A stretch of 64,000 nucleotides of DNA from Plasmodiophora brassicae (taxonomy: Eukaryota). Below the pieces are notes generated by a model that saw only the letters and a program-made list of their open reading frames with translations, did no database searches and was not told the DNA's origin. The position numbers were made by a program, and so were the translations under genes. The stretch's first letter is position 1. Every line of letters starts with the position of its first letter. Of the stretch, positions 19,640 to 64,000 are shown in pieces. Location: assembly GCA_036867785.1 (NCBI GenBank), contig CP145419.1, positions 558,001 to 622,000 on the forward strand, written 5' to 3'.

Positions 19640-20136
19640 CACACAACCAAGACGTGACAACGATCCACGAACGTAACAGGACCCGAACGGTGATCGGACG
19701 ACAGTGGCAAGATTGTAGAAATTCTCCGACTGTGGAGTTCTCCGAACCGAAATCACTCGGACTGTATTCCCCATCCCAGTGACCTCCCCTATCGGACATC
19801 CATCGTCCGACACGTAGCCTTTGTGGATCCGGAACCCTCGTGCCTCGGGAGCCTCGGAAGCCACATGTACGGAACGACAGGGAATGAACAGGTATTCCGC
19901 CCTCGCTCTACACTGCCTTTTCCCGAGCTCATGACCTGGATGGAGGACGATATAAACCATGCTGTGCTTCCGATGGCGATCAGCACTTTACTGGGGAACC
20001 TGTTTACACACCTAGCGGAAGATTAAACGCCTGGAGAAACGTCAAGGGCCACGACAGTCTCGGATACGAGGACAGACACGCGGGTGGCGGTTCAAGACGT
20101 AGTCGGAGCTTCATGTCATGATTGTAAGCTAATCGA

Positions 20137-26444: not shown

Positions 26445-26552
26445 GCCGCACGAATTCGAAGTCCGGGCCCGGCTTTAGCGACATCATTATCAGAGGCATG
26501 GTCGGCAGCAACAGAGGGGTTTAGTAACTGTGGAACGCGATCGAAGCATTTG

Positions 26553-27195: not shown

Positions 27196-27318
27196 GGCGT
27201 CGCTAGACACACCACCGAACGGATTTGGTGGTACGCATGACGATCCCGTCCAGATACAATAGCATCGATCATGGGGCGGGTGCGGCGTTTGCCGTTTCGG
27301 GGCAGCGCGGGATCAAAA

Positions 27319-36909: not shown

Positions 36910-37387
36910 GCTGGCGCTGGTCGTGGCGTCACACGCGCGTACGGGCGCGAACGACGATCTAACACACAATGAGTCACGCGCGCTGGCAGACGACACTTGC
37001 CGTTAGGCCTAGGGCGCAGTCACACACAACGACCCCGAATCGCACAGTCCGTCGACGGCGTGCGTGCGGACTCCGGCAACCGTCAGAAAATGCGCCGCGC
37101 GGCCCCTCCGAGGTGCACTGGCCACTGCCAGAAATACAGGGCCTGAGACTAATCTCTCACGCTTGGGCAGACTACCTATAAGGGGCGGGTCGCCTCCCAA
37201 CGGCCGACCTGATATCCAAGTAGATTCTTCGCTGGCACCAATCAAGCGGCCAGCGGCCTGTGGGTCGTGGACCGCAACCATGGTGCTCCGACACGTACGT
37301 CAGTGCATTTTGGAATACAACAACGGTTGGGTCGGACGCGGACGAACTTGAACGCGAATGCCGCCGCAGGGCGAGTTGGACACGTGT

Positions 37388-39910
37388 CTAGATGAAGTAC
37401 ATCTGCGATCCGGTGCGGCCCATGACGGTCGGGATGCCCGAGCTGGCTGACGCAGACGACGTGTCGGACGACGATCCGGACTGGAACTCGTACTCGTCGG
37501 CCTTGGAATGGAAACGGGCGCGGAATGCCGCCAGGTGCGCGTAGTACGCCGCGGGGACGAGCGACACCGAGCGTGTACAGCGCGCGTACATGTAGCACTG
37601 GCGGTAGGTCAGGTCCTGCAGCAGGTCGGGCGTGAACCCGTTCTCGTCAAAGATGACGTGGTAGTGCGTCGGGCGCGACGTGCCCTGGATGCCGCCGTGC
37701 GCCACGAGGTAGAAGTCGAACTGGCGCGGGTGCACAACGGCCGTGTCGACGACGGTGCCGGCGGGCACGTTGCCGGAGCGGTCCGCTTCGCGTGACGACT
37801 GCGGCGTGCAGAAGAAGCGGGCGTGGTGCCGTTTCTGGACAATGACGAACGTGATCTTGGGCGTGTACCCGGACTCGAGCTCGTTGCAGGCCTCACGAAG
37901 CGCGTTCAGCTCGTACTTCAGGACGTGGTCGAACTGGCCCTCGGACACACCATCGCGGTAGAACAGGATGCGTTCCGGTTTCTTGCCGCGCGTCGCCTGG
38001 TAGAACCGCTTCAGCAGGTTCATCGCCATGCCCTTCAGGTCCTGGATGATCTCCTGGCGGTTCTTCTGCGCGCGCGTCTCACACTCGTAGCGGAACGGGT
38101 ACGCGTCCATGCTGGCGACGACGGCCGCCAGCGACGGCAGCTTCGAGAACGGGGCGGCGTGCGTCACATCAGCGCCGAACACGATGGCCGGCTTGCTGAA
38201 CAGGAACTGCGTCGACGGCGACGAATCCAGGATACTGTTGATGCCACCAACACGGGCGTTGATCTTGAGCAGGATGTTGCGCGCATACATCGGGTCGGCC
38301 TTCTGGACGTGCTTCGACAGCATGCACTGCGACGGGACGTCAATGACCGTGTCACAGACACGCTTGATCTCGCCGTACGCCGACGGGTCCGAGAACGGGA
38401 GAATGATCATCAGCAGCTGGCACTGGCCTTTGGCCTGGTCCTCGACCTGCTTGACGGCCTTCATGATGATGTCCTGGTAGCCGCTCGGGCGCCCACGCGG
38501 GCACGGGATGATGACGGGACGCTGGAACATGATGCCCATGTCCTTCGCGGTGGCGTTCAGCATCTGCAAGAAGTTCATGACCTCGTTCTCACGAGCGCGC
38601 TGCTCGAGAACCAGGACGCCCCAGCGATCGACAGCCGGCGTCGTGTACATGTGCGCGTCCCTGAACTGCCAGGCGCCAAGCTTGGGCACCACGAACTTCT
38701 GCTTGCTGCGCTCCTGGTTGTACGCAATACGAGGTGGGTCGAGAACGCGCCCGTCAATCTGGACCATGCTGGTTTCCACTTTGATGCCAAAGTCAGCTAG
38801 TGCGGGGTCGTTCGGGTAGCTGCGTTCAGCAACCGCCTTGTTGACCGAGTCCAAACGGATGTTCGGCTTGGCGGCCGTCTTCTTGATCATGGCCGCCGTC
38901 TGCGCCGGCGCCAGCTTCTTGGCGATACGTTCGCCAGCGACAATGTCGCAGACTTCCATCGGCAGGCGCGCACCGTTGCTCTTGTTGCCCACAATCAACA
39001 GCGGCAGGTTCGGGTACTTCAGCTTGACCTGGTAACGCTCCTCAAAGTACTGCGCAACGTTCACCTTGCGAAGCTTCCCGTTCTCCTCAATGTCGAACAC
39101 GAACTCCAACGCATTCTGCTTGTCAATGTCGTGCACGCGGTACTTGCGCTTCTGTCCAGCGCGGTGCTTAGCGCAAACCTTCACACCAGCCAGCTCGGCG
39201 CGGATGGCCGTGCGGCTCGACTCGTCGATCTGCTCCAGCGGCTTCCTCGTGACCGATGCAATCAGGTCCGTCACCGCCTGGGCACGATGGAAACAGGTGG
39301 CGGCCACGTCCAGGTTGACGAGCAGGCGGCCGTGCGCGGGACGAAGCGACTGATGGTAACCGAACCAGATCTCCGCGCCAGCGTCCAGCGGCGCCGTGTT
39401 CCGGCCGGAGAAGAACGACGAGCCGATGGTCGTGCACGTCGAAATCGGCGTCGTGCGAAGGACGACATCGAGCGCCTGCACGCAGTCCTGCGGAATGTCG
39501 AGGTCGCCGCCCTTCAGGAATTCGTGCAGCGTCGCCATGTTGACGACGGCAACATGCTCGAGCTTGACGGTGAACTTGTCGCGACGGTCAGGGACATCGA
39601 CAGTCTCGACGCGCGACTGCCAGGACAGCCTCTTCGGGTAGTACATCGTGGCTTCGCCGTCGTAGGCGAACGTCAGGCGCCCCTCGAACAGGTCAGGGAC
39701 GTTGTCGCGCAGCGCCGCCATGACGATACGGTTGACGGCCTTGGGCACGGCCGGCGTGATCTGCACGTTGTACATGTGCAGGTCGGCCGACGGCAGGCAG
39801 GTGACCGCGAAGAAGTTGCTATACAGAGGGATACGGCGGCCACGCGTGCCGGCGCCCTGCCTGACTGGCATGTACGCCGGGCTCGACGTGACCAGCTCCA
39901 TCCCGCTCAT
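37388..39910 (-). CDS. AGO: Argonaute, 840 aa, intronless (copy 2, tandem paralog)
   Basis: Same domain set and intact DEDH tetrad; collinear with copy 1. Confidence 0.98.
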   Translation of the reverse strand: MSGMELVTSSPAYMPVRQGAGTRGRRIPLYSNFFAVTCLPSADLHMYNVQITPAVPKAVNRIVMAALRDNVPDLFEGRLTFAYDGEATMYYPKRLSWQSRVETVDVPDRRDKFTVKLEHVAVVNMATLHEFLKGGDLDIPQDCVQALDVVLRTTPISTCTTIGSSFFSGRNTAPLDAGAEIWFGYHQSLRPAHGRLLVNLDVAATCFHRAQAVTDLIASVTRKPLEQIDESSRTAIRAELAGVKVCAKHRAGQKRKYRVHDIDKQNALEFVFDIEENGKLRKVNVAQYFEERYQVKLKYPNLPLLIVGNKSNGARLPMEVCDIVAGERIAKKLAPAQTAAMIKKTAAKPNIRLDSVNKAVAERSYPNDPALADFGIKVETSMVQIDGRVLDPPRIAYNQERSKQKFVVPKLGAWQFRDAHMYTTPAVDRWGVLVLEQRARENEVMNFLQMLNATAKDMGIMFQRPVIIPCPRGRPSGYQDIIMKAVKQVEDQAKGQCQLLMIILPFSDPSAYGEIKRVCDTVIDVPSQCMLSKHVQKADPMYARNILLKINARVGGINSILDSSPSTQFLFSKPAIVFGADVTHAAPFSKLPSLAAVVASMDAYPFRYECETRAQKNRQEIIQDLKGMAMNLLKRFYQATRGKKPERILFYRDGVSEGQFDHVLKYELNALREACNELESGYTPKITFVIVQKRHHARFFCTPQSSREADRSGNVPAGTVVDTAVVHPRQFDFYLVAHGGIQGTSRPTHYHVIFDENGFTPDLLQDLTYRQCYMYARCTRSVSLVPAAYYAHLAAFRARFHSKADEYEFQSGSSSDTSSASASSGIPTVMGRTGSQMYFI

Positions 39911-40150
39911 GGCGCTGTCGACGCGTCTGCAGCCGCGCCCAGACGCCACAGTCTATCCAAAAAATGACAGCGACCGACGAACGCGGACAGCAGCAATGCG
40001 TCACGCACGCACCCACACAAACTCCGCGGCGATTGACCGAATGCCGGGCGTTATTCGCGTGGAGAGACGGCGTCTCCACAGGGCTTGGCTGCAGCGAGAC
40101 ACGTGTCTGAACCCTGCCACGGGGAGTCGATACAGACACATATGCTGTAA

Positions 40151-42478
<2,328 letters not shown>

Positions 42479-49721: not shown

Positions 49722-51178
49722 TTATTTGAGGGTATCCCCCGTTGCTAGCGTGGGCAGTGCCAGTGTCCTGGGGTCGTACATGGAGTCGCCCGTTGTGAGA
49801 GTCGTCACCTTCAGGTAGTTGGGCGCAGGCCACTGCTCCCTATTGTTCACGTGGCGGTGGGCATGTGCCATCCGGGTCTGGCGCTTCGGCCGCAGCGCGA
49901 TGCATAGCAAGCACAGCATGAACAGGCTGCATCCTACAATGACGATAATCGTGAACCGGCTGGAATATGCACCTGCCGCGGTGGACGCTGCTGCCGATAC
50001 TGGCGCCAGCTTTGTCGTAGGGAAGCGAGGCTGCGATGCTAAACGGGCCCGAGAGCCCCCGGTTGTGGACACGGCTTGCGGTGGCTTGGATTGGGCGTTT
50101 GGTGCTCTCATGACAGATGCTCGTGCTCGTGGACCTGGTGCGCTCGCCGTCCTACGGGAGATGTGGCTAGGCGCGCGCGACCGTGCTCGGCTGCCCGAAA
50201 TGGTTCTTTCAGGCGTGCTTCTGGGTGCCGGGCGCTCACCGGCCCAAGAGGTGGACAAAACCAACGCGTCGTTGGGTGCCCCGTAATGGGTCGATCTGCC
50301 ATGACGAGGCACGGTCGCTAACGTTGAACGACCGGAGCTGGTGGTTGGTCGACGCGTCTGTCCTCTTCGGGTCTGCCTGGCAGGGTTCGGGACAGCAGCA
50401 GGCGTCGTGCACAGGCCATTGACGCATACGGGATACGAAGACGGGCACGTCCCTTGTGTGCACGACGAGTTTGTCGGCGAAGCAGTATACGGGCTAGCGT
50501 TCGAGGTGTAGTCGTCGAACCTGACGAATTTAACGGAAGGGCTTCAGTTTGCCGCTGTAAACGCCAGCGAATCGTCACGTTGACCGACATGCAGACGTAA
50601 ACGTCCTGTGAATACTGAGGCAAGCACGCCGCCGCCGCCTGCTCGCCGCACCCGACGCTGGTCGCGGCATCATTGACGATCACGTTCCAGTCGTTGTCGC
50701 ATGCACCTGGCCCGTGCAAGCACGAACAGGCCAGGGCGCCTGCGACGATCTTGCACTGCCACTGGAGCCTCTACGAGTGCCAGGCCCCGGTCAGCACATA
50801 CGTTCGGACCCGGGCCTGACCATTGGCGCGCCCGACCTGAACCAGGAAGTTGCCTTCAATGACGTCAAGGATACCCTGCGACCCATAGCTAGGGTACTCG
50901 GCGTCGCCGATGTAATTCGAGCATCCGGCACACGTCGGGTTGGACCGGAAACCGCCATTGCATTGCGTCGATGCATAACGTGCCGCTGAAGCAGCCAGGC
51001 TGGCGTTCCATTGCAGCTGGACCATCCTGCTGGCGGTCGGAACGACTCTGGAACGGACGCTGTTCAGCAGGCGCAGGATCTGCTCCTGCGTGACGCCGTC
51101 GATGAACGCCGTCGAGACGACCGGCAAGAGGACGAACGACAGGATCAGGTGCGCGTGGATAGCATTCGTCTTCTTCAT
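49722..51178 (-). CDS. Receptor-like CAP (SCP/PR-1) protein, copy A (divergent cytoplasmic tail)
   Basis: Signal peptide MKKTNAIHAHLILSFVLLPVVSTA; LNSVRSRVVPTASRMVQLQWNASLA; VGCG; CTQGTCPSSYPVCVNGLC; TM FTIIVIVGCSLFMLCLLCIAL. Confidence 0.85.
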
Positions 51179-51314: not shown

Positions 51315-52990
51315 TTAGATGCTGGCGCCATAGAGGGAGCCGCAATCCGACGTAGACGAGGTCATGGCGCCCTGATTGAACTTGTCCCTGGCGACGCCCC
51401 GTGCCTGGAGCCTGCGAATCGATTTCGGGATCGGTAGTGGCCCACGTCCACGCTCTGGTTCGGATGCCGACGTCGAGGGGGGCACCGCTGCGGGAACCAC
51501 TGGCACTGATTGTGTCCCAAACAGCGGGGAACCGGACGGAGGAGGCGCTGAGACTACGCCGGTCTGCCATTTGTCACTCGGGTACTGAAGGTCGACGGCA
51601 GGAGCCTGAAGCACATGCTGCTTCGATTTTCGTATGCATATCGCAATGCCCGCCATGCAAGTCAACGCGATCGTCCCCAGGACGACCACGGCCGTCACTG
51701 ATACGCTGGCCAGGATGGACAGTTGAGAGGCAGGTGCACCCCCCTGGGCAGCAGCTGAACCTTTGATGCTAGGCTTCAGCCTATTCAGCCACGACGTCGG
51801 CCTGATCAACGTCTGTGAACGTCGCTCAACCTGGCCCGTCATCCGCGGCCGTATGGAAGCTGACGGGAACCTTGACCGCGGCCGTATTGAAGCTGACGGG
51901 AACCTTGACCCTGGTCGTATCGAATCTGACGGGAACCTTGTCGCCACGACTGCATGAGTTGATCCCATCTTGCTCGGCGATGGCCTGTGCACGGACGGCG
52001 TTCGGGCGTACCCAGCTGCGGCAAGAGGCGTTCTGGGCGTTGTCGTTAGACGGGTCCTGGTTGAACGACGTTGGGTTTGCCTCTTCGACGTGGGTACCGC
52101 CTTGGAAACCCTGGAGGATGTCGTGCGGTCCACCCGGGTAAACGGTATGGCTTTCTGTTGTATCCTCGGGGCACTGTGCGTTGTCGTCTGGTCACGCTTC
52201 ACGGGTGGACTCCTCCTGGTGGTCGGCGGCATCTGCGACGTTGGCGGTGGCGACGACGTGCATAAACCGTTGACGCAGAACGGGTATGACGTTGGGCAGG
52301 TGCCCTGTGTACACGAAGCGTTCGTCGCTGACGGCGTGTAAGGGTGCGCATTCGACGTCCACCCGTTGAAGCTTTGCAGAACGTGCACGTGATGAGGTTC
52401 CATGGGCATACACTGCTAGACGCATTGCTTACATGCAAATGTAAATGTCAAACTGGCCGTTGCAAGCGCTTGCTGATTGTTCCCCGCAGCCCACCGCGGT
52501 AGCCCCATCGTTAACGATCGCGTTCCAGTCGCCGTAACAGGAACCTTTGCTGCACGTGCAGGTCAACGTCGCATCCGTCTTCGTACACGACCATGTCGCT
52601 CTCTGCACCTTTGTAGCTCAGCGCTGGGACGTCCGCCACCATCCACCTGGAACGTACCTCGGGGAGGAACACGCCAGTGATGGCGTCGAGGATCCCGTGC
52701 GTCCCGTACGACGGGTTCTCGGCGTCACCCATCCAGTTCATGCAGTCGGGGCAGCTGGGCCCACCGCCGCCCATGTGGCCCGAGCACTGTGTGGTGGCGT
52801 AACTGGCAGCGACCGACGCCAACTTCGCATCCCAGGTCAGCGCCACCATTTGCGCTGCCGTCGGCACGACGCTCGCCCGAACGCTGTTCAGCAGGTCGAG
52901 GACCTGCTGCGGCGTGACACCGTCGATCAGCGCCTCGTATCGGGCAACCAACAGCGTTGCTGTGCCCAGCAGTATCCATGGCGTCCACAT
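51315..52990 (-). CDS. Receptor-like CAP protein, copy B
   Basis: Signal peptide, CAP exons, CTQGTCPTSYPFCVNGLC, S/T/R stalk, TM, and tail PKSIRRLQARGVARDKFNQGAMT. Confidence 0.88.
51844..51940. repeat. 33-bp coding tandem repeat x3 (RFPSASIRPRS) in the copy B stalk
   Basis: cgcggccgta(t)ggaagctgacgggaaccttgac-type units at 51844, 51877 and 51910. Confidence 0.9.
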
Positions 52991-53152
52991 ATTTTCACGG
53001 GCCGGCTAGACCTCGGTGTACCCTGTTCGATCCGGTATCTTGCGAACGATCGTCTACAGTCAGCAATGGTTCCGAGAGACAGTTGTTCGAGTCGCGGGTC
53101 GCCGCTGTTCGTTCACACGTTAGGTTAGGCCTAGGGTTTATGTGCCTGCAGA

Positions 53153-54771
53153 CTAGAACATCGTGTCGCCATCCGATACTGTCATGGTCATGGCGCCTTG
53201 GTTGAACTTATCCTTCGCGATGCCCCGTTTCTGCAGCCTGCGAATCGACTTGGGCACTGCCGCCGCCGAGGGATAGCCACTGGGTGACTCCGATTGGGAC
53301 GATGCCGGCTCCTCAGGTGCCGTTGGATTCAGTAACGCCGGGTGCATCGGCACAGGCGCCACAGGAGCGGCGAGTGACCCACCCGGCAGTGATGGAGGGA
53401 TGGACATAGGACTGCCCCGCCAATCACCGGTCAGGTAGTGGTGTTGCACAGCGGGAACGAACGTAGTTCCATGCTTGGCCTGCTTCCGCATGCAGATTGT
53501 CGTAATGGTGGCTGTGCAGCAGGCCAGCGCAACCGCCCCGATGATGTACAGGACGGTGTTAGAGATGCCGGCAACGATAGAGTAGTTTGAAGCAGAGGCG
53601 GCTCTCACCTCAGCACCTGCGCTTGGTGAATGTGCCTTTGACGACGCTCTCGAGCTGAGCACCTGCCCCGTTGTGGATATCGGCTGCGACACATGAGCGT
53701 TGCCCTGGCTGGTCACAAGAGGCCCTACAAGCACGGCCGACAATCACTACGATTGTCCATCAGTTCCGATTCCGGCTTACTCCTCAACGTTGTCGGCATG
53801 GTCGACTTTGGCGCACCCGGGCGGCTCGACGATGCCACGTGTACCGGGTTCAGTACGGAGCCGTCCGTACGTTTCCTGGACGTGGAACCGTTGACCCCCC
53901 TGGTCGTCTTCTTTGTCACAGGAGCATGTGCTGAGGTCTGCTGCGCTGCTATGCGTCGCGATGTCGTCTTCTGCGCAGCCGGAACACCTTTGGTGGTCTT
54001 ATGCGACACGCGACCACCCAGCGTGGTCGTCTTTGTCACCGGTTTCGTGCATAAACCGTTGACGCAGAGCGGATAAGCCAGCGGGCAGGTGCCTTGCGTA
54101 CACGACGAATTCGTCACGGATGGTGTGTACGGATGCGCATCCGACGTCCACCCATTGTATCTTCGTGAGCACCGTGAATCGTCGAGACGAAACGCAAGCA
54201 CTGAGTACTCCTTACGCGCAGACGTAGATGTTGTACTTCCAGCCGCAAGCCGCTGCCGATTTGTCCCCACATCCAACGGCCGTCGCCGCATCGTTGACGA
54301 CGGTGTTCCAGTCATCCCAGCACGGCATTTGAGGGCAGGTACACGTTAACGTGGAACCTGACTGTGTGCACGGCCACTGCGATTTCTGCATCGCACGGTT
54401 CACGTTCGTCTGCGGCTCGTACGGTGCGACGTACGTACCGCGGCGATAAAGTTGCCGGCGATGACGTCGAGGATCCCGTGCGACCCGTACGAGGGCAGCT
54501 CTGCGTCTGCTGTCCAGCTGACACAGTTGGGGCAGCTGGGTCCCTGGCCGCTGAACTGAGCCGAGCACTGTGTGGCCGCGTAACTGGCAGCGGCGGCCGC
54601 AAGCGTGTCGTCCCACTCCAGTTTGACCATGTGCGCCGCTGTCGGAACGACGTTGGCACGCGCGCTGTTCAATAGGTCGACGATCTGCTGCGGGGTGACA
54701 CCAGCGATCAGCGCCTCTAGTCGCACAGCCAGCAGCGTTGCTGTCGCCAGCACCGCCCATGCCGACCGCAT
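53153..54771 (-). CDS. Receptor-like CAP protein, copy C
   Basis: MRSAWAVLATATLLAVRLEA; CAP; Cys module; an extra 56-nt intron (53725-53780) restores the frame; TM; PKSIRRLQKRGIAKDKFNQGAMT. Confidence 0.88.
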
Positions 54772-54968
54772 GCTCTCGAGGTCGCCGCCGCTCAGATTCT
54801 TCAACGCTGAGCGGCGATCCACTTGGATATCGTCCATCCACGACCGTACGTACCCCCTGACGTCCGCATTGGGACACAGCCAGTAATGCTGCGGCACCCA
54901 GCAACAACTCGGTCGTCGAATACATATATTGTATCGCGTTGATAAGCACGGGAACGATGAACTAGCCG

Positions 54969-56773
54969 TCACGGTTCAGTAACTGACGACTGCCACGTGT
55001 CCGTCTCGGATGTGGTAAGTGTCATGGCGCGTTGGTTGAACTTATCCCTGGCCATGCCGCGTGCCTGCATCCGGCGGATCGATTTCGGCACCATGGAGGA
55101 CCTGTGCGATTCGGCCACTGGGTGTCCGACGGCTGAGGGCTGACGTTGCGCCGGTAAGACGACCGCGGCAGGCGCCACGGGAGCAGTTATTGTCACAAAC
55201 GGCGGTGGCGGGGCAGCGGGCATCGGCTCGTTCCTCCACACAAGTTCCACCTGCTTGGTCGGCTTCAGGATGCATATCGCAATGGTTGCCAAGCAGACCA
55301 CAACGACAGCTCCAGTAATAAACAGGACCGTGTGCGAGATGCCTTCGAAGGCTGACGTTTGCTGGGCGGTGGCTCTCCCCTGATCCGCTGGCGCGCCTTT
55401 GAAGCTCGTCTTCGGCGCATTCAAGTCCAGAGTCAGCCGAGCCGTTGCCCTCGGCTGATGTAGAATACGGGTCTGCGTCTTCGTCCACGACGCTACCATC
55501 CCTGTCAGTAAACACCCAGGTTTCGAATGGGCCCGTTGACTCCAGCGTACCCTTGTGCACCGTCGTGACCATCCCTGGACGTCCTGAGGAGGATGGTTTC
55601 CTTGTCCCCGACGCTTTCTCATTCAGAGAATGCTGATTCGTTGTTCTCGAAACTGGAAGGGCCCGGGTCTGACTGATCTTCTTCCATGACCCTACCAGTG
55701 GCGTAGTCAGCGCCGTTCAGAGCCCACTCATGGCTTCTCCGATGTCCATGTCCCATTGGATACGTTGACTCCAACTTACTTGTTATAGACCGACGTTCAG
55801 TCGTGGCCATCGGTTTGTGTCTGGAGGTGGGGCGCCTCGTTGCGAACCCGATCAGCGGTTCTGTGGTCCTGGGACGGTTCGTCCGCCCCTTGGAAGTTGG
55901 CCGTAAGACGGTACGCGTAGTGGCACTCTGCGTCACACGATGGTGTTCGCTTGATGGTCGTTTGTGCTTTCGCGCGAACTTTCATGGACGTTACCTGAGT
56001 GGTCGGCTGCTTTGTGCACAGGCCGTTGGCACAGAACGGATACGCCGACGGACAGGTGCTCTGCGTGCACGATGAGTTCGTCGTTGATGGGGTGTATGGG
56101 TGCGCGTCCGTTGTGTGCCCGTTAAACCTACAACGCACAACAGGTCTTGGGTAACATAGATGAGGAGGTGATCATCCCAGTTGCCTACGCGCAGACGTAG
56201 ACGTTGTACGGTCCTTTGCAAGCGGTGGATGTTTGCTCTCCACATCCCACCTCTGTCGCCGCATCATTGACAAGCGTGGTCCAGTCGCCATAGCATGGGC
56301 GGCTGATGCAGGTGCACGTTAACGATCCAGCCGATTGCGTGCACGACCACTTCGCTTTCTGTACAGACGTTCAGGATACGGTACATGGGTTACCGCCGTT
56401 GGCAATCAGGACGATGGACAGTGCCACATACCTCGGCGACGAAATTCCTCGTGATAATATCGAGGATCCCATGGGTTCCAAACGACGGTGTCTCCGCATC
56501 CGCTATCCAATCGAGGCAATTGGTGCAGTTGGGCCCTGGATCGGTAAACACGCCCGAACACTGCGTAGCAGCGTATCTGGCAGCGGCGACCGCCAATGTC
56601 TCATTCCATTGCAGTTGCACCATTTTCGTCGCCGATGGCACGACGCTGGCGCGGGCGCTGTTCATCAGGTTAACGACCTGCTGCGCAGTGACGCCGGCGA
56701 TCAGCGCCTCCAGCCGGGCGGCCAGCAATGCTGCCGCTGTCAGAGCCATCCATGTCGCCCGCGTACCCACCAT
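54969..56773 (-). CDS. Receptor-like CAP protein, copy D
   Basis: Signal peptide, CAP, Cys module; stalk frame restored by predicted introns 55928-55994, 55692-55779 and 55502-55550; TM; PKSIRRMQARGMARDKFNQRAMT. Confidence 0.8.
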
Positions 56774-56899
56774 ATCGTCGCTTGACGAGATATTTATACT
56801 GCGACCCCCGGGTCGCCAGCTGATTCCAATTCGCCCCATTATGGTTAATGTGACGCATTCCTTATCCCATGATTCACCTCATCGTGCATCTCGATGGTG

Positions 56900-58388
56900 A
56901 AGTCCTTCGCGGGGTTCGAGGTTGTTTATTCCGGACAGTCCTCACACCACCGACTCTTTCGACGCACGATCGGCCCAGAACATAGCTGGCCGACCTTGGG
57001 GTTCGGGGAGAAGCGACGCGCATTCTGTCTCACGATCCTCTTGCCGTACCCCTCCTGTGCCATGCGCTCGGCGACTTCCCACGCTGACCGTAACCGCCGT
57101 TGCAGACCCCGCAGGAACTCGCGATACGACCGATCGATCCGCTTGTCTGGCAGTCGAACGTCGTACTCCAGCGGGCCTCGTAGATCCCACCCGAACTCTA
57201 GGTAATGGGGCGTCCCGGCGTCGTCGTCTCCACGGTCGGCGCGCCACTCGACTTCCGCTTCGGGCATTCGAACCGGAAGTGTTGAGCACCGTCGCATCCC
57301 GGGCAGCGCTCTTGGGCTCGGGCCTTCTGGCATTTCGTCCAAGAATGCCCCGTGCTCCGACACGTCCGACACCTGCCGGCTGCACCGACGACCGCCTTCT
57401 TCGTCGGCTTGGCGTCGTCAGCGTTGCGTTCCTCGTAGAGGCATTCGCGTATGAACGAGATCTTCTCCCGGTAGGTCCGCCGCGTCTCCAGGTGCTCCCA
57501 GAGCATGTGGGTGGTCACGAGCTTGCCGCGCACCTGCGCGTTGAGCGACGCGAGATAGATGTCGTAGATCTCGCCGTCGTGTGCGCGATCCGGATCGTTC
57601 TCCCGGTACTCGTTCAGCGCCGTCTCGAGCCGAGGCAGGAAGGCCGTCAGGGTCTCGCCATCCCTCTGCTTGAGGGATTTGGCCGCCAACCCCCACGAGC
57701 CCCGCGTCCGCGCCTCTTTCTTGCCCAGGAGTTTGTCCCGCGACCCGGTCGGAAACAGCCACGTCGACGCTCCGACGTGCGCCCGCAGAGCCGGATGCAT
57801 GCCCTTGGACAGGACATAGTTTTCCTGGTCTTCCCGGCTCGCGTCCCGGCGTCGAACCAGCGGCATGGCCCCGTTGAGCCAGGTCTTGACCGCCTCCCGA
57901 TCTTTCCAGGGGTCTTTCGTGCACTCCTTAAGGTCGATCTTGACCGGTGCCCGGAGCCGCTCGTCGTACCCCCGATCGCCCACCGGCGCCTCACTAGCCA
58001 GCTCGCCGCTGCTGCATCGCACGCGTGCCACCGGCCTGTGCATCGCTGCGATCTGGGTCCTTGCCGCCCGCAGCTCCTCCTTCAGGCCGGCGACGTCTGC
58101 CTCCAGCCGAGCCCTAGCAGTGTCTGCTGGCGCCGAGTTCTCCCGGCCCACTGGAGCTCGGCTTGCCTCTTGCACCGCCATCTGCTCCCTGGCCACGTCC
58201 TGCTCCTTGGCTGCGAGGACCATCGCCCTGACGTCGTCCATATCCAGTCTGAGCGTCGCGATCTCTCCTCTCTGCTGGATCCGCTCCTCGTCCTGGACCT
58301 TCATGTGCGCGATGATCGACCTCAGCATGGGACGCAACTCGTCCAAGTCCTCCGCCTTGACCGTGATCGCCGCATCGTCCGCCGGCAT
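56900..58388 (-). mobile_element. Internally deleted LTR-retrotransposon (Ty3/gypsy-like): intact gag ORF 57198-58388 followed by an integrase C-terminal remnant
   Basis: Coiled coil, LKQRDGETLTAFLPRL, and two CCHC knuckles CRTCRSTGHSWTKC and CPGCDGAQHFRFEC; downstream GWDLRGPLE...LRSAWEVAER...PKVGQL is typical of gypsy integrase tails; no RT/RNase H. Confidence 0.8.
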
Positions 58389-58649
58389 GATTCAACCCGA
58401 TACTACAAGCGATTGTGTGCTGCTGAACACGAGCCAATTCAGACTCCACACCGACGTATAGTATGTATGACACATCCGGCGCGATCTCGACGCCGTGACT
58501 GGGTGGTACTCGCCACCGAACAGCAATCGCTGGGCCTCTCCGGCCGCTGGTACTGCTTCATGACTCTGACAGGGGCGTCCGTCCAATTGCCCGCCACAAC
58601 TGCTGGATAGACTTGCTGATCTCGGTCCAGCGGTTTTGCATCGCTTCTT

Positions 58650-58960
58650 GGCACATAGCCGTCTCCCCAGCCGTGGCCTTCAACTTCAGGAAGACATCGC
58701 CGGATCAGGTGGGCGACCTGGCTTCGTTCCCCGGAAATGGATCCTCGGAGATGATGATGATCCACGCGCGTACAATCGCTGGATCCTCCCCTCCTCTATT
58801 CATTTGCCATCGCGTCCCGTGAACCGTTCGCGCTCGACGCCGATGGCATCCATATACTACACCTAGTACAGGACTCGCGGCGTGAAGCTCTCCTTGTCAA
58901 ACGGCATATGCTTCCAGCTTCCACTGTCCAGATGTCGTTAAGGTTTCTTCAGCTGATCAT
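58650..58960 (-). mobile_element. Degenerate Ty1/copia-like protease fragment
   Basis: Minus-strand HLDSGSWKHMPFDKESF matches the copia W.LDSG.S.HM...K..F motif; surrounded by stop codons. Confidence 0.55.
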
Positions 58961-59053
58961 GCGACATCGCCAGCCTCCAGGGCAGTGCTGAAACTCTTCA
59001 TCGGACTGGAGCTTCAAGTTGTTCTACCCGATAAGCGATAGGAGCCGATAAAC

Positions 59054-60603
59054 TTATAGCTGTACCGTGTGATCAGGTTCCGACACGCTCATCGTCATGG
59101 CGCCTTGGTTAAACTTGTCCCTCGCAACTCCACGTAGCAGGAGTCGGCGAATGGCTTTCGGCATACGTGCATCTGGTCTCCCTGGGTCCTGCACAGCAGC
59201 CGACGTTTGCAAGTCCGCCTGCATCGGTACATGGTGAGGCGCAACAGGTGCGGTTAGTGGCCCTGGACGCACAGGTGCGGGATTACGGTCCTGGCGAAGG
59301 GCTTTGGAGTTGTGCAGCACTCCACGTTGCACTGTGATGCGCTTGCGGATCCACACTACAGTGATGGCCGTGCAGACGACAGCGATGGACCCGATGGCGA
59401 ACAAGGCCGTATTGGAAATGTCGCCAAAGATCACCGACCCGGCCGCAGATGCGCTGTCCAGGACACCACCCGCGCCTTTCGAGCTGCTCGTCCTCGTCTT
59501 CGGAGTCGACAATGCTTTGCCAGCGGTGGACCTGGGAACTGACGTGTGGCGGGGATGGCTTGCCAGGTCCGGCTTGGCCACCGACGTAGACGGCTCGACT
59601 GGCAGTACTGCCGATTCTCTCTTGACACTCGTCAGAGGCCAATCATGTACAATCGAAGTTCGAGATATGGGACGTCGCCGCGTCGTGTTTCCTCGGGTAC
59701 GTCGGCCTGTTGTAGGGCGGTTCGTTTGTCTCGTCAAGGATGATACCCTGGCTAGCGTGGATGTCCTCCGGGGTACCAGCGGCGCTGCTGAAACAGACGA
59801 CCTGATCCTCTGGGTCGTCGAGGCGCGCAGCGCTGTCGTCTGTGTCGCGAGGGTGTACATCGTGGTCACCCGCTGCGCTGTGCATAAACCGTTGACGCAA
59901 TAGGGATGTGCTGATGGACAGGTGCCCAGCGTGCACGACGAGTTCGTCACCGACGGCGTGTAAGGACTTGTGTACGACGAGAACCCATTGAACCTTTCAT
60001 CATCACAGTCAGACTGATCTGTCGGCACGCACGATACAGTGTGTGCCTACACGCAGACGAAGATGTTGTACGACCAGCCACAGGCGCTGGCAGACTGATC
60101 CCCGCATCCGACCGCCGTCGTGCCATCGTTGAGAAACACGCTCCATTCATCGTTGCATTGGTATCTGCAGCTGCACATCAACGTGCTGCCTGATTGTTTG
60201 CAGGTCCAGCTTGTCCTCTGTTGCACGTGTTTACCCTAACCCTCAGTACAGGTCTAGTTCAGGAACGCACCTCGTTGAGGAGATCGGTGATGCCATCGAG
60301 GATTCCACGCGTGGAGGCCGACGGCAAGGATGCTTTACCGACCCAGCTCATGCAGTGTGGGCATTGCGGCCCTGCACCGCTGAAGGCGCCCGAGCACTGT
60401 GTGGCGGCATAGCTGGCAGCAGCGGCCGCCATGCTCGCATCCCATTCTAGTTTCACCATCTTCGCCGCCGTGGGGACGACGCTGGCGCGGGCGCTGTTTA
60501 TCAGTTCGAGGACCTGCTGCGGCGTAACGCCAGCGATCAACGCCTCCAATCGAGCAGCCATCAACAACGTGACCGCCCCCAGAGTGGCCCATGCGATCCC
60601 CAT
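59054..60603 (-). CDS. Receptor-like CAP protein, copy E
   Basis: MGIAWATLGAVTLLMAARLEA; CAP; CTLGTCPSAHPYCVNGLC; stalk; TM; PKAIRRLLLRGVARDKFNQGAMT. Confidence 0.88.
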
Positions 60604-60885
60604 TGCGAAAGACGTCGTCCACTTACCTGGATATTTGCTGACGGCGCCCGATCAGACTGTACAAACGCACCAGTTCAACTATCATGCTGCACTCGTACCA
60701 GGAACGACAGCAATGTCCCGTACGTGGATACGTCCTCAGTCGTCCACACGAGGCCAAAGTTATCCGGCATTTGCTTGAAGGAATCGTGCAGGTCACCCGT
60801 CATCATCTTCAAGGAATGCAACTAATTTGGCTAGGACGAACTGGTTCAGGCCTTTGGTGCGGCCATCAACTCATGTGATCTTAAA

Positions 60886-62452
60886 TTATGCATCCGATTC
60901 AGACGGGTCGCTAACCGTCCTGGCACCTTGGTTGAACTTGTCCCTGGCGACGCCTCGTGCCTGTAACCTGCGCACCGCCTTTGGCATCGCATTGAAGGGG
61001 TCATGGGCAGGCGGATCCGCCGGACGTGTGTCGCCAGTGAACGCGCTTTGTCCAACCGACTGTACAGAAGACGTGGCCAGAGGATCAGTCGGCCAGTTGA
61101 TGAATTCTGGGATCGCTCGTGCGGAGAGCTCCTGCTGGTTCCGTCTGCGAATGAGCAACGCCAGGGCGGCCATGCAAACTACAGCGACCGATCCGACCAC
61201 GAACAAGGTCGTGTCTGACACGTCGCTGAAGAGGGACGGCGATCGTGGAGCAGATGCGCTTCTCGTGTCAGCACCTGGACCTTTTGAACTGCTCCGCTTC
61301 GACCGTGGCGTCGTTACTGCCATCCCCGTGCCCAGGCTTGTCACGAACGACCGTACTGAACCTTGTCTAACCGGCTCGAGTGAACGCGTTGATACCCCGC
61401 TAGAGTTTGCCAAGAGCCGAGGCGTCGTTGTCAATCGCGAGCGGGGCCGCATCGTAGACGTTCTCCTTTTCACGTGCCCTGTTGCTGGACGGCTCGTTCG
61501 CTTCCTTAAGGATGGCACGTTGGCACGCTGCAGCGTGGCCCTTAACGTCGTCACAGACGTACGCCTCTTCGTCAACTGCTTCACAGACGTACGCCTCTTT
61601 GTCAACTGCTTCACAGACGTCCGCCTCTTCGTCAACTGCTTCACAGACGTACGCTTGGTCCTCATCTTCGTCACAGACGTACGCCTGGTCGTGAACTGCG
61701 TCGCTGGTCGACGCGTACACAAACTGTTGACACAGGACGGATACGCCGACGGGCAGGTGCCCTGCGTGCACGACGAGTTCGTCGCCGACAACGTGTACGG
61801 GTGGGCGTATGACGAGAACCCATTGAACCTTCCAAGTCGGCATCAGTCGTCGTCGCTGAGGAGCACTGGCAGACGACCCGGTCCTTACGCGCAGACGTAG
61901 ATGTTGTACGACCCGCCGCACGTGCTGGCTAACAGCTCGCCGCACCCAACCGTCGTCGCTCCATCGTTCAGGATGACTTTCCAGTTGTCGTAACAATGGT
62001 ACGACGAGCACTTGCAGGACAGCGTCGTGCCAGATTGTGTGCACGACCACTGCGCTTTCTGACACCCGATCATTCGGATGACGCTGGCCGACCGGCGGAT
62101 AGGTCGCGTGCGTACGTACCTCTCCCATCAGGTCGTTGATGCTGTCGAGCATCCCGTGCGTCGTCGCCGATGGGTACATGCCCTCGCCGATCCAGTTCGC
62201 GCAATCGGGGCACTGGGGACCCTGCCCGTCGAAGTTCGCCGCACACTGTGTGGCCGCGTACCTGGCCGCGGCCGCCGCCAGCGTATCGTTCCAGGTCAGC
62301 CGCACCATCTGCGCCGCTGTCGGCACGACGTTGCCGCGAATGCTGTTCAGCAGGTCGACGACCTGCTGCGGCGTCACGCCGTCAATCAGCGCTTGCAACG
62401 GGCCGGTTAGTACAGCTGTCGCCAGCAGCACCACGACCCATGCCAGGCGCAT
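60886..62452 (-). CDS. Receptor-like CAP protein, copy F
   Basis: MRLAWVVVLLATAVLTGPLQA; CAP; CTQGTCPSAYPSCVNSLC; repeat stalk; TM; PKAVRRLQARGVARDKFNQGART. Confidence 0.88.
61551..61700. repeat. 30-bp coding tandem repeat x5 (RRTSVKQLTK) in the copy F stalk
   Basis: tcacagacgtacgcctcttcgtcaactgct units at 61551, 61581 and 61611, with diverged units at 61641 and 61671. Confidence 0.92.
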
Positions 62453-62699
62453 GAGATTCCAGAGGTCGCCGCCGCCTACGAGGATATTTGCTGACGACCC
62501 CGATCGATTCGCGAAATCATACAGTGACGTTTGCCACGTGCCCGGGTTGGGCGTGCACCTTCTTGACCTACACTGATTCACGGACACACTCCTCAAGAGA
62601 GCAACCTGTAGGAGGGGGTGGCGAGCCGGCGACAAGCGCACGGCCAGGTCTATCGTCCGACGACTACCTAGAACGACGATACAGCGCCTTCCTACAGCC

Positions 62700-63264
62700 C
62701 GACTTCGTATATAGATGCGGCCCGGCTCCAGGTTCCGCTGCGCTTGCCATAGCTTCCTGACCGAACTTGTCGTTGGCGAATGACTTGCGAACGCCCGTCC
62801 CTGTAACGTCACACTTGTGGTAAGACGGTCCCCTGTGCTAGATCATCACTGAACTCTGGCAAGGCGCACCCTGCCTAAATGGCTGTGCTGGACCTGGAGA
62901 TGGATTTGCGAGCGACCGAGTGGGGGCGGCGATAGGCTGGCCTCCGGCCCCCCCAGATGGCGTCCGAATTCGAATCTTACGGCACCTCGGCATCGGCGAT
63001 CCAGCTGACGCAACCTGGGCAGCTGGGTCCTGGCCCGGCCAAGAAGTCTGCCGAGCACTTTGTCGAGGCGTAGCTGGCCGCCGCGGCCGCCAGCGTCTCG
63101 TTCCATTCCAGTTTCACCATTTTCGCTGCCGTCGGCACCACGCCCGCCCGGGCCCTGTTCATCAGATCGACAACCTGCTGTGGCGTAACGCCATCGATCA
63201 GGGCCTCCATTGGGGAAGCCAGCATCAGCAGTGCTGAAACCAGCAATGCCCATGCCGGCGACAT
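62700..63264 (-). pseudogene. Internally deleted CAP-receptor pseudogene, copy G
   Basis: Intact signal peptide and N-half of the CAP domain ending at a premature TAA (62977-62979); ~200 nt later a tail remnant FANDKFGQEAMA (~62745-62780); exon 2, Cys module, stalk and TM are missing. Confidence 0.75.
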
Positions 63265-63380
63265 ATATTCCTGGTCAGGCTGTCGGATAGATATTTCTTT
63301 CTCGCGACCCACACGGTCGTACCTAAACAGTACGCATGACGTGCGCGGGCGTTCCAGGCAAACTCTTCACGATTCATTGG

Positions 63381-64000
63381 TCAATTCAGCTCTGGTTCGG
63401 TCATGCCCACGAACGTCGCTCCCCGGCCGAACTCCTCCCTGGCGACGTACCGAGCCTGTGCGTTGCGAATCGCTTTCGGCAGAGGCGCCTGCCGATAGGG
63501 CGGGCTAGACGCGGCGTCGGAGTCGTGCTCGGATAGTATATCGACCGTTGGCCCCAACGGCGGGCCTGACAACGATGGGCTGTGAAACACGGGCCCCGTA
63601 CCCAACCCGATGGGTGCACCCCGCCAGGTGAGCGTATCGACGCCGTTCCGCATTGCAGGACCCCGATCCACCTGCCTGGCCAGCCTGCAATTCCACACGA
63701 CCGCCGCGACGATCGCTGAGGTGACCGCGGCGGCCCCGATCACGTACAGAAGCCCGTCCGCGAGACCGCCTCCGACGAGGGACGCTCCGGGGGCCGACGT
63801 GCCCCCCAGGTCCACAGGCGCGCCTCTGGAACTCGTCCACGTGGCACCGGATGCGCTTCTGGAACTCGTCCTCGCGGAACTCATCCTCGCTGTTGTCGGC
63901 ATCGCGTATTGTGTGCTGGCCTGGCTGGTCGCCTGCGTCGACGAAGCCACCGTGCTCCTCAGGGGCGTCGGCACCGACGTCGGCATCGGGTCGACGTGTG
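63381..64000 (-). CDS. Receptor-like CAP family protein, copy H (3' part only; runs off the window)
   Basis: S/T stalk, TM GLLYVIGAAAVTSAIVAAVVW, and tail PKAIRNAQARYVAREEFGRGAT. Confidence 0.8.
   Translation of the reverse strand, partial: HVDPMPTSVPTPLRSTVASSTQATSQASTQYAMPTTARMSSARTSSRSASGATWTSSRGAPVDLGGTSAPGASLVGGGLADGLLYVIGAAAVTSAIVAAVVWNCRLARQVDRGPAMRNGVDTLTWRGAPIGLGTGPVFHSPSLSGPPLGPTVDILSEHDSDAASSPPYRQAPLPKAIRNAQARYVAREEFGRGATFVGMTEPELN

What the first reader, a model, noticed from the sequence alone, without database searches (positions are those of the whole stretch)
51363..63482. Strongly conserved ~23-aa cytoplasmic tail motif PK[SA][IV]RRLQARGVARDKFNQGAMT
Seen: the stalks and juxtamembrane regions are barely alignable, yet this motif is nearly invariant in copies B (~51363-51432), C (~53188-53255), D (~55022-55090), E (~59096-59163) and F (~60922-60985). 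It is diverged in H (PKAIRNAQARYVAREEFGRGAT) and survives as a remnant in pseudogene G. It follows a Pro-rich linker and precedes an S/T/acidic end. Inference: it is a docking site for a shared intracellular partner. It could form a basic amphipathic helix with a loose, shortened resemblance to IQ (calmodulin-binding) motifs. I do not recognise it as a named domain.
Basis: partly seen in the sequence, partly recalled or inferred. Interest (0 to 1): 0.75.

Follow-up and report, generated by a model that had tools for sequence, protein, structure and literature searches.

The report
Shared cytoplasmic tail motif, clubroot parasite
A short, strongly conserved sequence ends the inner tail of a tandem family of membrane-anchored CAP/SCP proteins of the clubroot parasite Plasmodiophora brassicae and also ends unrelated surface proteins of the same organism, so it is probably a common address or docking tag whose reader is unknown.

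Summary
Six minus-strand genes (B, C, D, E, F, H) carry PK[SA][IV]RR[LM]Q.RG[VIM]A[RK]DKFNQGAMT. It lies 9-16 residues before the stop. Pseudogene G keeps a remnant and copy A lacks it.

The genes belong to Plasmodiophora brassicae. Each encodes a signal peptide, a CAP/SCP domain, a Cys-rich module, an S/T/R/K stalk, one TM helix and a Pro-rich tail.

Among B-F the motif has pS 0.56, like the rest of the gene, but pN 0.11. That indicates purifying selection, not recent gene conversion.

The new finding is that the core (basic run, [AV][RKV]DKFNQGA[MH]T, then an S/T-acidic end) also terminates six other P. brassicae single-pass proteins. Their ectodomains are unrelated: LRR, LRR plus SUEL lectin, and glycoamylase-like. 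No credible match came from any other organism, from Pfam or from the PDB.

The docking-site idea is therefore supported indirectly. The IQ/amphipathic-helix idea is not: the IQ consensus fits 0 of 12 tails, the hydrophobic moment is no better than shuffles, and the IQ-like half is specific to the SCP family.

Best reading: a lineage-specific cytosolic short linear motif read by one common factor, most likely a trafficking adaptor. I found no published description.

The parts
51315..52990 (-). Copy B. A 3-exon gene (52990-52658, 52602-52433, 52371-51315) encoding 519 aa: signal peptide, CAP/SCP, Cys module, stalk, TM, tail. Motif at 51360-51428.
   Evidence: Gene model. The motif codons are listed. 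P0001, a 295-aa public prediction, is its C-terminal part.
53153..54771 (-). Copy C. A 4-exon gene (54771-54439, 54385-54216, 54160-53781, 53724-53153) encoding 484 aa. Motif at 53186-53254.
   Evidence: My model is identical to P0016, 'SCP domain-containing protein [Plasmodiophora brassicae]'. Pfam CAP PF00188: E 5.1e-8, 34.2 bits against a cut-off of 21.1, profile positions 1-117 of 117.
54969..56749 (-). Copy D. A tentative 6-exon model of 480 aa. Motif at 55020-55088.
   Evidence: One search gives an intact ORF with GTA[ACT]G/GTAGG donors and AG acceptors. The stalk introns are not unique: one search found 3636 open paths. Public annotation splits the gene into P0022 (N-terminal part) and P0002 (C-terminal part).
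59054..60603 (-). Copy E. A 3-exon gene encoding 479 aa. Motif at 59093-59161.
   Evidence: My model is identical to P0017, PBRA_004931.
60886..62452 (-). Copy F. A 3-exon gene encoding 481 aa, with KRRTSVKQLT repeats in the stalk. Motif at 60916-60984.
   Evidence: P0003 is its C-terminal part and P0023 an alternative public N-terminal model.
63381..63998 (-). Copy H, C-terminal part only; its N-terminus lies beyond the window end. It holds stalk, TM, tail and a diverged motif (PKAIRNAQARYVAREEFGRGATF) at 63411-63479.
   Evidence: P0004 corresponds to it.
62730..63264 (-). Copy G, a truncated pseudogene. CAP exon 1 (63264-62980) ends in a stop after ...AEVP. The rest is degenerate, with a motif remnant ANDKFGQEAMASAAEP at about 62730-62777 in another frame.
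   Evidence: Profile hit E 0.022.
49722..51178 (-). Copy A. A 3-exon gene encoding 440 aa with the same ectodomain, stalk and TM, but a 56-aa tail WITHOUT the motif. It is a natural motif-less paralogue.
   Evidence: One search shows no motif match at E<=0.1 in this gene.
57201..58391 (-). Gag-like ORF with two CCHC knuckles, lying between copies E and D. It is not part of the family. It explains the gap in the array.
   Evidence: sequence. No Pfam family at E<=1e-3.

Best explanation
The motif is a cytosolic, C-terminal short linear motif. It has three parts: a basic run (RR/R.R), the core [AV][RKV]DKFNQGA[MH]T, and an S/T-rich acidic end 8-17 residues long.

It terminates a Plasmodiophora brassicae-specific set of type I single-pass membrane proteins. 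These proteins are modular: a variable ligand-binding or enzymatic ectodomain (CAP/SCP, LRR, LRR plus SUEL lectin, or glycoamylase-like), an S/T-rich stalk, one TM helix, a disordered Pro-rich linker of about 50-100 residues, and then the motif.

Shown here:
- the anatomy;
- the cytoplasmic side of the motif;
- purifying selection on the peptide, not on the DNA;
- reuse of the core on four ectodomain types.

Inferred:
- One common cytosolic factor reads the tag.
- My preferred mechanism is adaptor-mediated trafficking or retention, that is, an address label that brings these proteins to, or keeps them at, one membrane such as the parasite surface or a secretory compartment.
- The neighbouring S/T-acidic cluster would act as a phospho-regulated (CK2-type) modulator.

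I put about 0.6 on 'functional docking/sorting motif read by a shared partner'. I put about 0.35 on sorting specifically.
For: 1. Six window copies score E 1e-19 to 1e-23 against the motif profile, plus one remnant.

2. Nei-Gojobori estimates among B-F:
- motif: pS 0.56 (0.43-0.71), pN 0.11, pN/pS 0.20;
- CAP domain: pN/pS 0.42;
- stalk: pN/pS 0.83;
- linker: pN/pS 0.78;
- pS is 0.54-0.76 in every region.
The copies are therefore old, and only the amino acids of the motif are held.

3. Exhaustive profile scan of 1.84e9 representative proteins. It gave 11 hits at E<=1e-3.
- Four are window copies.
- Two are other P. brassicae proteins: P0007, which clusters at 90% identity with the C-terminal part of the 634-aa LRR protein P0012, and P0010, part of the 885-aa glycoamylase-like P0014.
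- Four inspected hits are internal-repeat proteins matched on part of the profile.
- One (P0006) was not inspected.

4. Word-indexed profile search of 5.8e9 proteins. It gave 12 hits at E<=1.
- Seven carry a P. brassicae name, three are the window's own proteins, and two cluster with named P. brassicae proteins.
- New hits were P0018 (LRR), P0020 and P0021 (LRR plus SUEL lectin), and the fragment P0019.
- Each of these ends in ...RR.[VE]ARDKFNQGAMT followed by an S/T-acidic tail.

5. The ectodomain families were verified with Pfam.

6. Tail anatomy over the 12 tails.
- 3-5 K/R in the 12 residues before the core.
- 0-1 K/R and 0-3 D/E after it.
- 11 of 12 tails hold at least one [ST]xx[DE] site.
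- The core ends 8-17 residues from the C-terminus.

7. Topology.
- One strong TM segment in each of the 11 proteins examined.
- In all 11, there are more K/R after the TM than before it.
- Tails are 76-123 aa in the 10 motif-bearing proteins.

8. Outside the motif, tails of different families are not significantly similar. The best cross-family BLASTP hit is E 5e-4, and the rest are >= 0.05, in a 12-sequence database. The motif is thus an island of constraint.
Against: - No partner was identified or tested.
- The motif matches no sorting signal that I can name.
- Whether it acts in sorting, signalling or anchoring is not discriminated by any result here.
- The N-terminal hydrophobic leader was detected by my crude hydropathy scan in only 7 of 11 proteins. 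It was missed in B, P0012, P0014 and P0020, some of which are probably N-terminally misannotated. For those, topology rests on the positive-inside rule and the domain type.
- An ectodomain with 14 Cys would sit in reducing host cytosol if the protein is on intracellular plasmodia. The relevant life stage or membrane is therefore unknown.
- Copy H tolerates many changes in the core.
- Copy A does without the motif.
- The absence of hits outside P. brassicae depends on which phytomyxid proteomes the databases hold. I could not verify that.
Confidence: 0.6

Rival explanations
1. Signalling or cytoskeletal coupling. The proteins are receptor-like or adhesin-like sensors. The tail motif recruits a common signal transducer or cortical anchor, such as a kinase, a GEF or an actin linker, rather than a trafficking adaptor.
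For: LRR, lectin and CAP ectodomains are typical ligand binders. The design of head, S/T stalk, TM and short tail resembles fungal Wsc/Mid2 sensors and apicomplexan TRAP-family adhesins (recalled, not tested). The evidence for constraint and reuse is the same as for the best explanation.
Against: One carrier has a glycoamylase-like hydrolase ectodomain, which is not an obvious receptor. The tail holds no catalytic or known adaptor-binding module. A Trp near the C-terminus, as in TRAP tails, is present in only 3 of 12 tails.
Confidence: 0.22
2. E3-ligase recruitment. The motif is the P. brassicae counterpart of the MEGF8/ATRN 'MASRPFA' motif or the plant GDU1 motif. It recruits the MGRN1/LOG2-type RING ligase and turns these proteins into receptor-like ubiquitin-ligase adaptors.
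For: Passages of Kong et al., bioRxiv 10.1101/2020.05.25.113944. They propose that MGRN1-family ligases bind conserved cytoplasmic motifs of single-pass TM proteins across eukaryotes. Their tree file lists a P. brassicae MGRN1 homologue (CEO98225.1).
Against: There is no sequence likeness. MASRPFA is absent, and the 'MA+small' signature is absent. The Met of GAMT is replaced in 4 of 12 tails by R, H or T. In their description the animal motif lies shortly after the TM helix; here the motif lies about 60-110 residues after the TM, at the C-terminus.
Confidence: 0.08
3. Calmodulin/centrin-binding IQ-like basic amphipathic helix.
For: The SCP copies read LQ.RG..R..F, which looks like a compressed IQ motif. 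AlphaFold puts a helix on KSIRRLQA, or on the whole motif at pLDDT 61-66.
Against: The IQ consensus [FILV]Qxxx[RK]Gxxx[RK]xx[FILVWY] matches 0 of 12 tails. A loose form matches 1 of 12. The hydrophobic moment is not above shuffles in any of the 6 copies. Pfam gave 0 of 6 tails at E<=10. The LQ.RG half is missing from the LRR, lectin and glycoamylase carriers, which conserve only ARDKFNQGAMT.
Confidence: 0.03
4. No function of its own. The identity would reflect recent duplication or gene conversion, or a constraint on the nucleic acid.
For: The genes form a tandem array, where conversion is common.
Against: Synonymous divergence inside the motif (pS 0.43-0.71 among B-F) is as high as elsewhere in the genes, while pN is 0.08-0.15. 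The same core also sits on genes on other contigs with unrelated ectodomains.
Confidence: 0.02

Closest known systems
MEGF8/Attractin 'MASRPFA' tails and the plant GDU1 tail motif, which recruit MGRN1/LOG2 RING ligases (Kong et al., bioRxiv 10.1101/2020.05.25.113944; passages read)
   Same: A short, highly conserved cytoplasmic peptide shared by several single-pass membrane proteins, set in an otherwise poorly conserved tail, and acting as the docking site for one cytosolic partner.
   Different: The sequence is unrelated. Here the motif is at the extreme C-terminus rather than near the membrane. The carriers have four unrelated ectodomain types. The partner is unknown.
Acidic-cluster/CK2 sorting signals of furin, CI-MPR and sortilin tails (recalled from general knowledge)
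   Same: A C-terminal S/T-rich acidic stretch with [ST]xx[DE] sites in 11 of 12 tails, on type I membrane proteins.
   Different: The most conserved part here is the preceding DKFNQGAMT core and basic run, which those signals lack. There is no dileucine or YxxPhi. The acidic stretch itself is variable.
Invariant cytoplasmic tails of protist surface-protein families: Giardia VSP CRGKA, apicomplexan TRAP/MIC2 tails, Trichomonas BspA-like LRR proteins (recalled)
   Same: Lineage-specific tail signatures shared by many surface proteins of a parasite. Three carriers hit the BspA-type LRR model PF13306.
   Different: The sequence differs. Here the tag crosses ectodomain families. None of the defining residues of those tails (CRGKA, penultimate Trp) is conserved.
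IQ calmodulin-binding motif (consensus recalled)
   Same: A basic segment with Q, RG, R and an aromatic residue in the SCP copies.
   Different: The spacing is wrong (0 of 12 match). It is not amphipathic. The IQ-like half is not the part shared between families.
CAP/SCP/PR-1 superfamily proteins of pathogens (Pfam PF00188). An SCP-domain fold cluster is reported in the P. brassicae secretome by eLife 2025;14:RP105185 (one passage read).
   Same: The ectodomain of the window genes is a CAP domain.
   Different: From recall, CAP proteins are mostly soluble secreted proteins. These are membrane-anchored with a conserved cytoplasmic tail. At least one P. brassicae secretome pipeline discards proteins with a TM helix outside the signal peptide (Front Microbiol 2021;12:742268, passage read), so this family would be dropped by it.

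Membership tests
CAP/SCP/PR-1 (Pfam PF00188), ectodomain of the carriers | Profile match above the curated cut-off over the whole domain | tested here: met
   P0016 (= copy C): E 5.1e-8, 34.2 bits against a cut-off of 21.1, profile positions 1-117 of 117. Exon 1 of C alone: 27.5 bits. The fold was not confirmed: the AlphaFold model has mean pLDDT 42, so no fold search was run.
Type I single-pass membrane protein with cytoplasmic C-terminus | N-terminal leader, one TM helix, positive-inside charge bias, and Cys/glycosylation sites on the N-terminal side | tested here: met
   There is one strong TM segment (Kyte-Doolittle 2.0-3.4) in 11 of 11 proteins. K/R in the 15 residues after the TM exceed those before it in 11 of 11. 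In copies A-F all 14 Cys lie before the TM. A leader was detected in 7 of 11. No dedicated topology predictor was available.
IQ calmodulin-binding motif | [FILV]Qxxx[RK]Gxxx[RK]xx[FILVWY] spacing on an amphipathic helix | tested here: not met
   Regex matched 0 of 12 tails. The hydrophobic moment was not above shuffles in 6 of 6 copies. No Pfam hit in 0 of 6 tails at E<=10.
MEGF8/ATRN/GDU1-type MGRN1-recruiting tail motif | MASRPFA or 'MA+small' signature | tested here: not met
   The signature is absent from all 12 tails in the alignment.
MEGF8/ATRN/GDU1-type MGRN1-recruiting tail motif | Binding to the MGRN1-family RING ligase | not testable with these tools
   The P. brassicae MGRN1 homologue is named only in a paper.
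Acidic-cluster (CK2-type) sorting signal | S/T followed by an acidic residue at +3 within an acidic C-terminal stretch | tested here: met
   At least one [ST]xx[DE] site in 11 of 12 tails; the exception is P0012. Phosphorylation and adaptor binding were not tested.
Tail-anchored proteins | A single TM within about 30 residues of the C-terminus and no signal peptide | tested here: not met
   76-123 residues follow the TM in the motif-bearing proteins, and N-terminal leaders are present.
Any named domain or solved structure covering the motif | A significant profile match | tested here: not met
   Pfam: 0 of 6 tails. PDB: one hit at E 0.11 (FNQGAGT in an arterivirus nucleocapsid), taken as chance. 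ESM Atlas: no usable hit.

The most novel reading that the evidence does not exclude
DKFNQGAMT is a previously unknown, phytomyxid-specific 'zip code' with a dedicated, still unidentified reader. It would mark the whole repertoire of host-facing or environment-facing type I surface proteins (CAP, LRR, lectin, glycan hydrolase) for one membrane domain or secretory organelle. The motif could then be used to list that surface proteome from sequence alone and to fish out the sorting machinery of an uncultivable parasite.
Probability: 0.3. Interest if true: 0.75.

Novelty: new variant of a known kind. Interest (0 to 1): 0.55.

Why it matters
P. brassicae cannot be cultured or transformed, and its cell biology at the host interface is almost unknown. 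At least one published secretome pipeline discards proteins with a transmembrane helix outside the signal peptide (passage). This family, and the other carriers of the tag, would be dropped by such a screen.

A 9-residue core under strong purifying selection ends at least 12 type I membrane proteins with four unrelated ectodomain types. It gives three things:
- a sequence-only way to list a coherent class of surface proteins;
- a concrete bait, a roughly 30-residue peptide, for finding the cytosolic machinery that handles them;
- a natural control, since paralogue A lacks the tag.

It also adds a case from Rhizaria to the few known examples of tail motifs shared across ectodomain families.

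Tried and rejected
- Gene conversion or recent duplication. Rejected by pS 0.43-0.71 inside the motif.

- Nucleotide-level element. Rejected by the same data.

- IQ motif or amphipathic helix. Rejected.

- Known domain. Pfam on 6 tails gave nothing. The PDB profile search gave one chance hit at E 0.11. The ESM Atlas search on the tail gave nothing usable.

- First word search with B's tail at near lengths. It found only B's own fragment, 1 hit among 4 candidates. That reflected the length window, not absence. The 'longer' search with alignment A2 found the others.

- Homologues of the whole SCP protein outside P. brassicae. None: 4 hits at E<=1e-3 among 7999 scored candidates, all from P. brassicae.

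- AlphaFold on the tail alone (mean pLDDT 66) and on full-length copy C with an 8-row alignment (mean pLDDT 42). Confidence was too low to decide helix versus extended, or to run a fold search, so no fold search was run.

- Homology of the whole TM-tail cassette between families. Only one modest hit, D against P0020 at E 5e-4 in a 12-sequence database, and it may be compositional. Left open.

- Copy D stalk introns. 3636 open splice paths exist. I chose the path with the best donors, so that part of the model is tentative.

- Literature.
  - 'DKFNQGA' searched anywhere: 0 papers.
  - Six locus or accession ids: 0 papers.
  - P. brassicae plus 'cytoplasmic tail': 7 papers, 5 listed, none on this by title or abstract start.
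  - P. brassicae plus 'SCP': 25 papers, 15 listed. I read passages of two of them.
  - 'SCP-like', 'CAP superfamily' and 'SCP domain' with Plasmodiophora: nothing on the tail.
  - The 12 supplements of the eLife paper that are held as text contain none of the six ids.

- Not checked.
  - Genome contigs holds bacteria and archaea only and was not used.
  - DNA of the carriers outside the window was not available. Their exon structure and their dS could therefore not be examined.
  - I could not verify whether Spongospora or Polymyxa proteomes are in the searched databases.

Full report
**What is in the window**

The region 49.7-64.0 kb holds a minus-strand tandem array of eight paralogues. They are labelled A to H from low to high coordinates.

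- The DNA is eukaryotic: GC is about 0.6 and the GT-AG introns are tiny, 49-88 nt.
- I built spliced models for A, B, C, E and F and a tentative one for D.
- Models C and E are letter-for-letter identical to two public proteins. These are P0016, 'SCP domain-containing protein [Plasmodiophora brassicae]', and P0017, PBRA_004931.
- A cluster look-up names the organism. The window therefore comes from the clubroot parasite P. brassicae.

Each intact protein is 440-519 aa and has the following parts, in order:

- an N-terminal hydrophobic leader;
- a CAP/SCP/PR-1 domain (Pfam PF00188, E 5.1e-8, whole profile);
- a Cys-rich module, FNGWTS.AHPYTPS.TNSSCTQGTCP..YP.CVNGLCT;
- a basic S/T-rich stalk;
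- one TM helix;
- a Pro-rich tail.

G is a truncated pseudogene. H runs off the window. A gag-like ORF separates D and E.

**The observation**

- A profile of the tails was run over all 2255 six-frame pieces of the window. It finds these six at E 1e-19 to 1e-23.
- The G remnant (ANDKFGQEAMASAAEP) follows at E 0.022. Nothing else scores below 0.16.
- Among B-F, 14 of 23 positions are invariant.
- Mean pairwise identity is 0.81 in the motif. It is 0.25 in the stalk, 0.25 in the linker, 0.39 in the TM segment, 0.60 in the CAP domain and 0.75 in the Cys module.
- Copy A has the same ectodomain and TM but a 56-residue tail without the motif.

**Selection or conversion**

Nei-Gojobori counts over the ten pairs among B-F give these values:

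| Region | pS | pN | pN/pS |
|---|---|---|---|
| Motif | 0.56 (0.43-0.71) | 0.11 (0.08-0.15) | 0.20 |
| CAP domain | 0.56 | 0.24 | 0.42 |
| Stalk | 0.68 | 0.56 | 0.83 |
| Linker | 0.66 | 0.52 | 0.78 |

- Synonymous sites in the motif are as diverged as anywhere else in the genes.
- The copies are therefore old, and the peptide, not the DNA, is what is kept.

**Topology**

A hydropathy scan finds one strong TM segment in each of 11 proteins examined.

- In copies A-F, 3-5 K/R follow the TM within 15 residues, against 0-1 before it.
- All 14 Cys and the NxS/T sites lie on the N-terminal side.
- This places the tail in the cytoplasm.
- The N-terminal leader was picked up in only 7 of 11 proteins by this crude method. 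No dedicated predictor was available.

**Does the motif occur on other ectodomains? Yes**

A profile of the six tails (A1) was scored against 1.84e9 representative proteins. It gave 11 hits at E<=1e-3:

- Four are the window's own copies.
- Two are other proteins: P0007 and P0010.
- Four are internal-repeat proteins matched on a fragment of the profile. I inspected them and dismissed them.
- One (P0006) I did not inspect.

P0007 clusters at 90% identity with the C-terminal part of a 634-aa LRR protein (P0012, SPQ98973.1). P0010 is part of an 885-aa glycoamylase-like protein (P0014, PBRA_008132; Pfam PF10091, E 1e-48).

A word-indexed profile search with the enlarged alignment A2, over longer proteins, gave 12 hits at E<=1 among 3558 candidates. 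Seven carry a P. brassicae name, three are the window's own proteins, and two cluster with named P. brassicae proteins. New hits were:

- P0018 (PBRA_008082, LRR);
- P0020 (PBRA_008417) and P0021, both LRR plus SUEL lectin;
- the fragment P0019.

Pfam confirmed the ectodomains. Their C-termini read as follows:

- ...RHQRRQVARDKFNQGAMTVSMSSDED
- ...RPRRAEARDKFNQGAMTTMSTTSESEPEAL
- ...RPRRVEARDKFNQGAMTSQSDSEWQTL
- ...MRYRRDVAVDKFNQGAMTMSTSESDCD
- ...ARGGVARDKFNQGAHTTTSS...

So the part shared by all families is a basic run, the core [AV][RKV]DKFNQGA[MH]T, and an S/T-acidic end.

- The N-terminal half PK[SA][IV]RRLQ belongs to the SCP family. P0012 has a partial version.
- Outside the motif, tails of different families are not significantly alike. 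The best hit is E 5e-4 and the rest are >= 0.05 in a 12-sequence database.
- A search with the whole copy C found only P. brassicae SCP proteins: 4 hits among 7999 scored candidates.
- In total, at least 12 genes and four ectodomain types carry the tag.
- No organism other than P. brassicae gave a credible hit. I could not verify whether other phytomyxid proteomes are in the databases.

**What the motif is not**

- Pfam: 0 of 6 tails at E<=10.
- PDB: one chance hit at E 0.11.
- ESM Atlas: nothing usable.
- IQ consensus: 0 of 12 tails. A loose form matches 1 of 12.
- Helical hydrophobic moment of the 16-residue segment: not above its own shuffles in any of the six copies.
- AlphaFold gives a short helix (KSIRRLQA) in the isolated tail at mean pLDDT 66. 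In the full-length model it gives a helix over the whole motif at pLDDT 61-66, within a model of mean pLDDT 42. I treat this as inconclusive.

**Anatomy of the tag over the 12 tails**

- 3-5 K/R and 0-1 D/E in the 12 residues before the core.
- 0-1 K/R, 0-3 D/E and 1-9 S/T after the core.
- At least one [ST]xx[DE] site in 11 of 12 tails.
- The core ends 8-17 residues from the C-terminus.
- Tails are 76-123 residues long, and the linkers hold 9-22% Pro.
- This is the typical picture of a short linear motif in a disordered tail.

**Most likely mechanism**

A common cytosolic factor reads the tag. I favour an address or retention function through a trafficking adaptor. There are four reasons:

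- The carriers include a hydrolase-type ectodomain as well as binders.
- The tag sits at the extreme C-terminus, next to a CK2-type acidic S/T cluster.
- The tails hold no signalling module.
- A paralogue exists without the tag.

This step is inference. No partner was tested.

Three rivals remain:

- Coupling to a signal transducer or the cell cortex.
- Recruitment of the MGRN1-type RING ligase. The idea comes from passages of Kong et al., who list a P. brassicae MGRN1 homologue. They propose that this ligase family binds conserved tail motifs of single-pass proteins across eukaryotes. The sequences, however, are unlike.
- The IQ/calmodulin idea, which is now weak.

**Novelty**

I found no description of the motif in the literature searches.

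- At least one secretome pipeline for this parasite removes TM proteins.
- The kind of feature, a tail motif shared by surface proteins, is known from other systems.
- The sequence, its use across four ectodomain families and the lineage are new.

Noticed in passing
window 34393-37002 and 37388-39952, minus strand: Two tandem, single-exon Argonaute paralogues. Each has the ArgoN, L1, PAZ, L2, Mid and Piwi domains, with Piwi at E about 1e-99. A DEAH-box helicase with HA2 and OB-fold domains lies next to them at 40151-42478 (+).
   Followed up: partly
window 57201-58391, minus strand: A gag-like ORF with two CCHC zinc knuckles is inserted between copies E and D of the array. It has no Pfam family at E<=1e-3. 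It is probably a retroelement remnant.
   Followed up: partly
window 54969-56749 (copy D) and 60886-62452 (copy F): Public gene models split these two genes. D is split into P0022 and P0002. F is represented by P0023, which has an aberrant C-end, and by P0003. Spliced models give intact 480-aa and 481-aa proteins colinear with C and E. D's stalk introns remain ambiguous.
   Followed up: partly
window about 61400-61700 (F stalk) and about 51650-51800 (B stalk), minus strand: The stalks are S/T plus R/K rich, with many dibasic sites and short tandem peptide repeats: KRRTSVKQLT about four times in F, and SIRPRSRFPSA about three times in B. Dibasic sites could allow Kex2-like shedding of the CAP head. 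This is an idea only.
   Followed up: no
tails of C, D, E, F and H in the window, and of P0019 and P0020: There are weaker shared tail elements besides the motif. One is W[RQP]xxP about 10-25 residues after the TM. The other is [LI][TA][AT]PVAP. They hint that the whole TM-tail cassette may share ancestry between families. D against P0020 gives E 5e-4 in a 12-sequence database.
   Followed up: partly
window 11722-13236 (+) and 13991-15595 (-): An ankyrin-repeat protein with an N-terminal hydrophobic leader (Ank_2, E 4e-27). Next to it lies an acidic repeat protein with a leader and no confident family. A passage of the eLife paper describes ankyrin-repeat proteins as a common feature of the P. 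brassicae secretome.
   Followed up: no
window 19001-19987 (-) and 26521-27312 (-): An ORF with two Zn(2)Cys(6)-like cysteine patterns. Its Pfam Zn_clus score is 20.6 bits, just under the 21.0 cut-off. Separately, there is a CFAP77-like flagellar protein fragment at E 1.8e-8.
   Followed up: no
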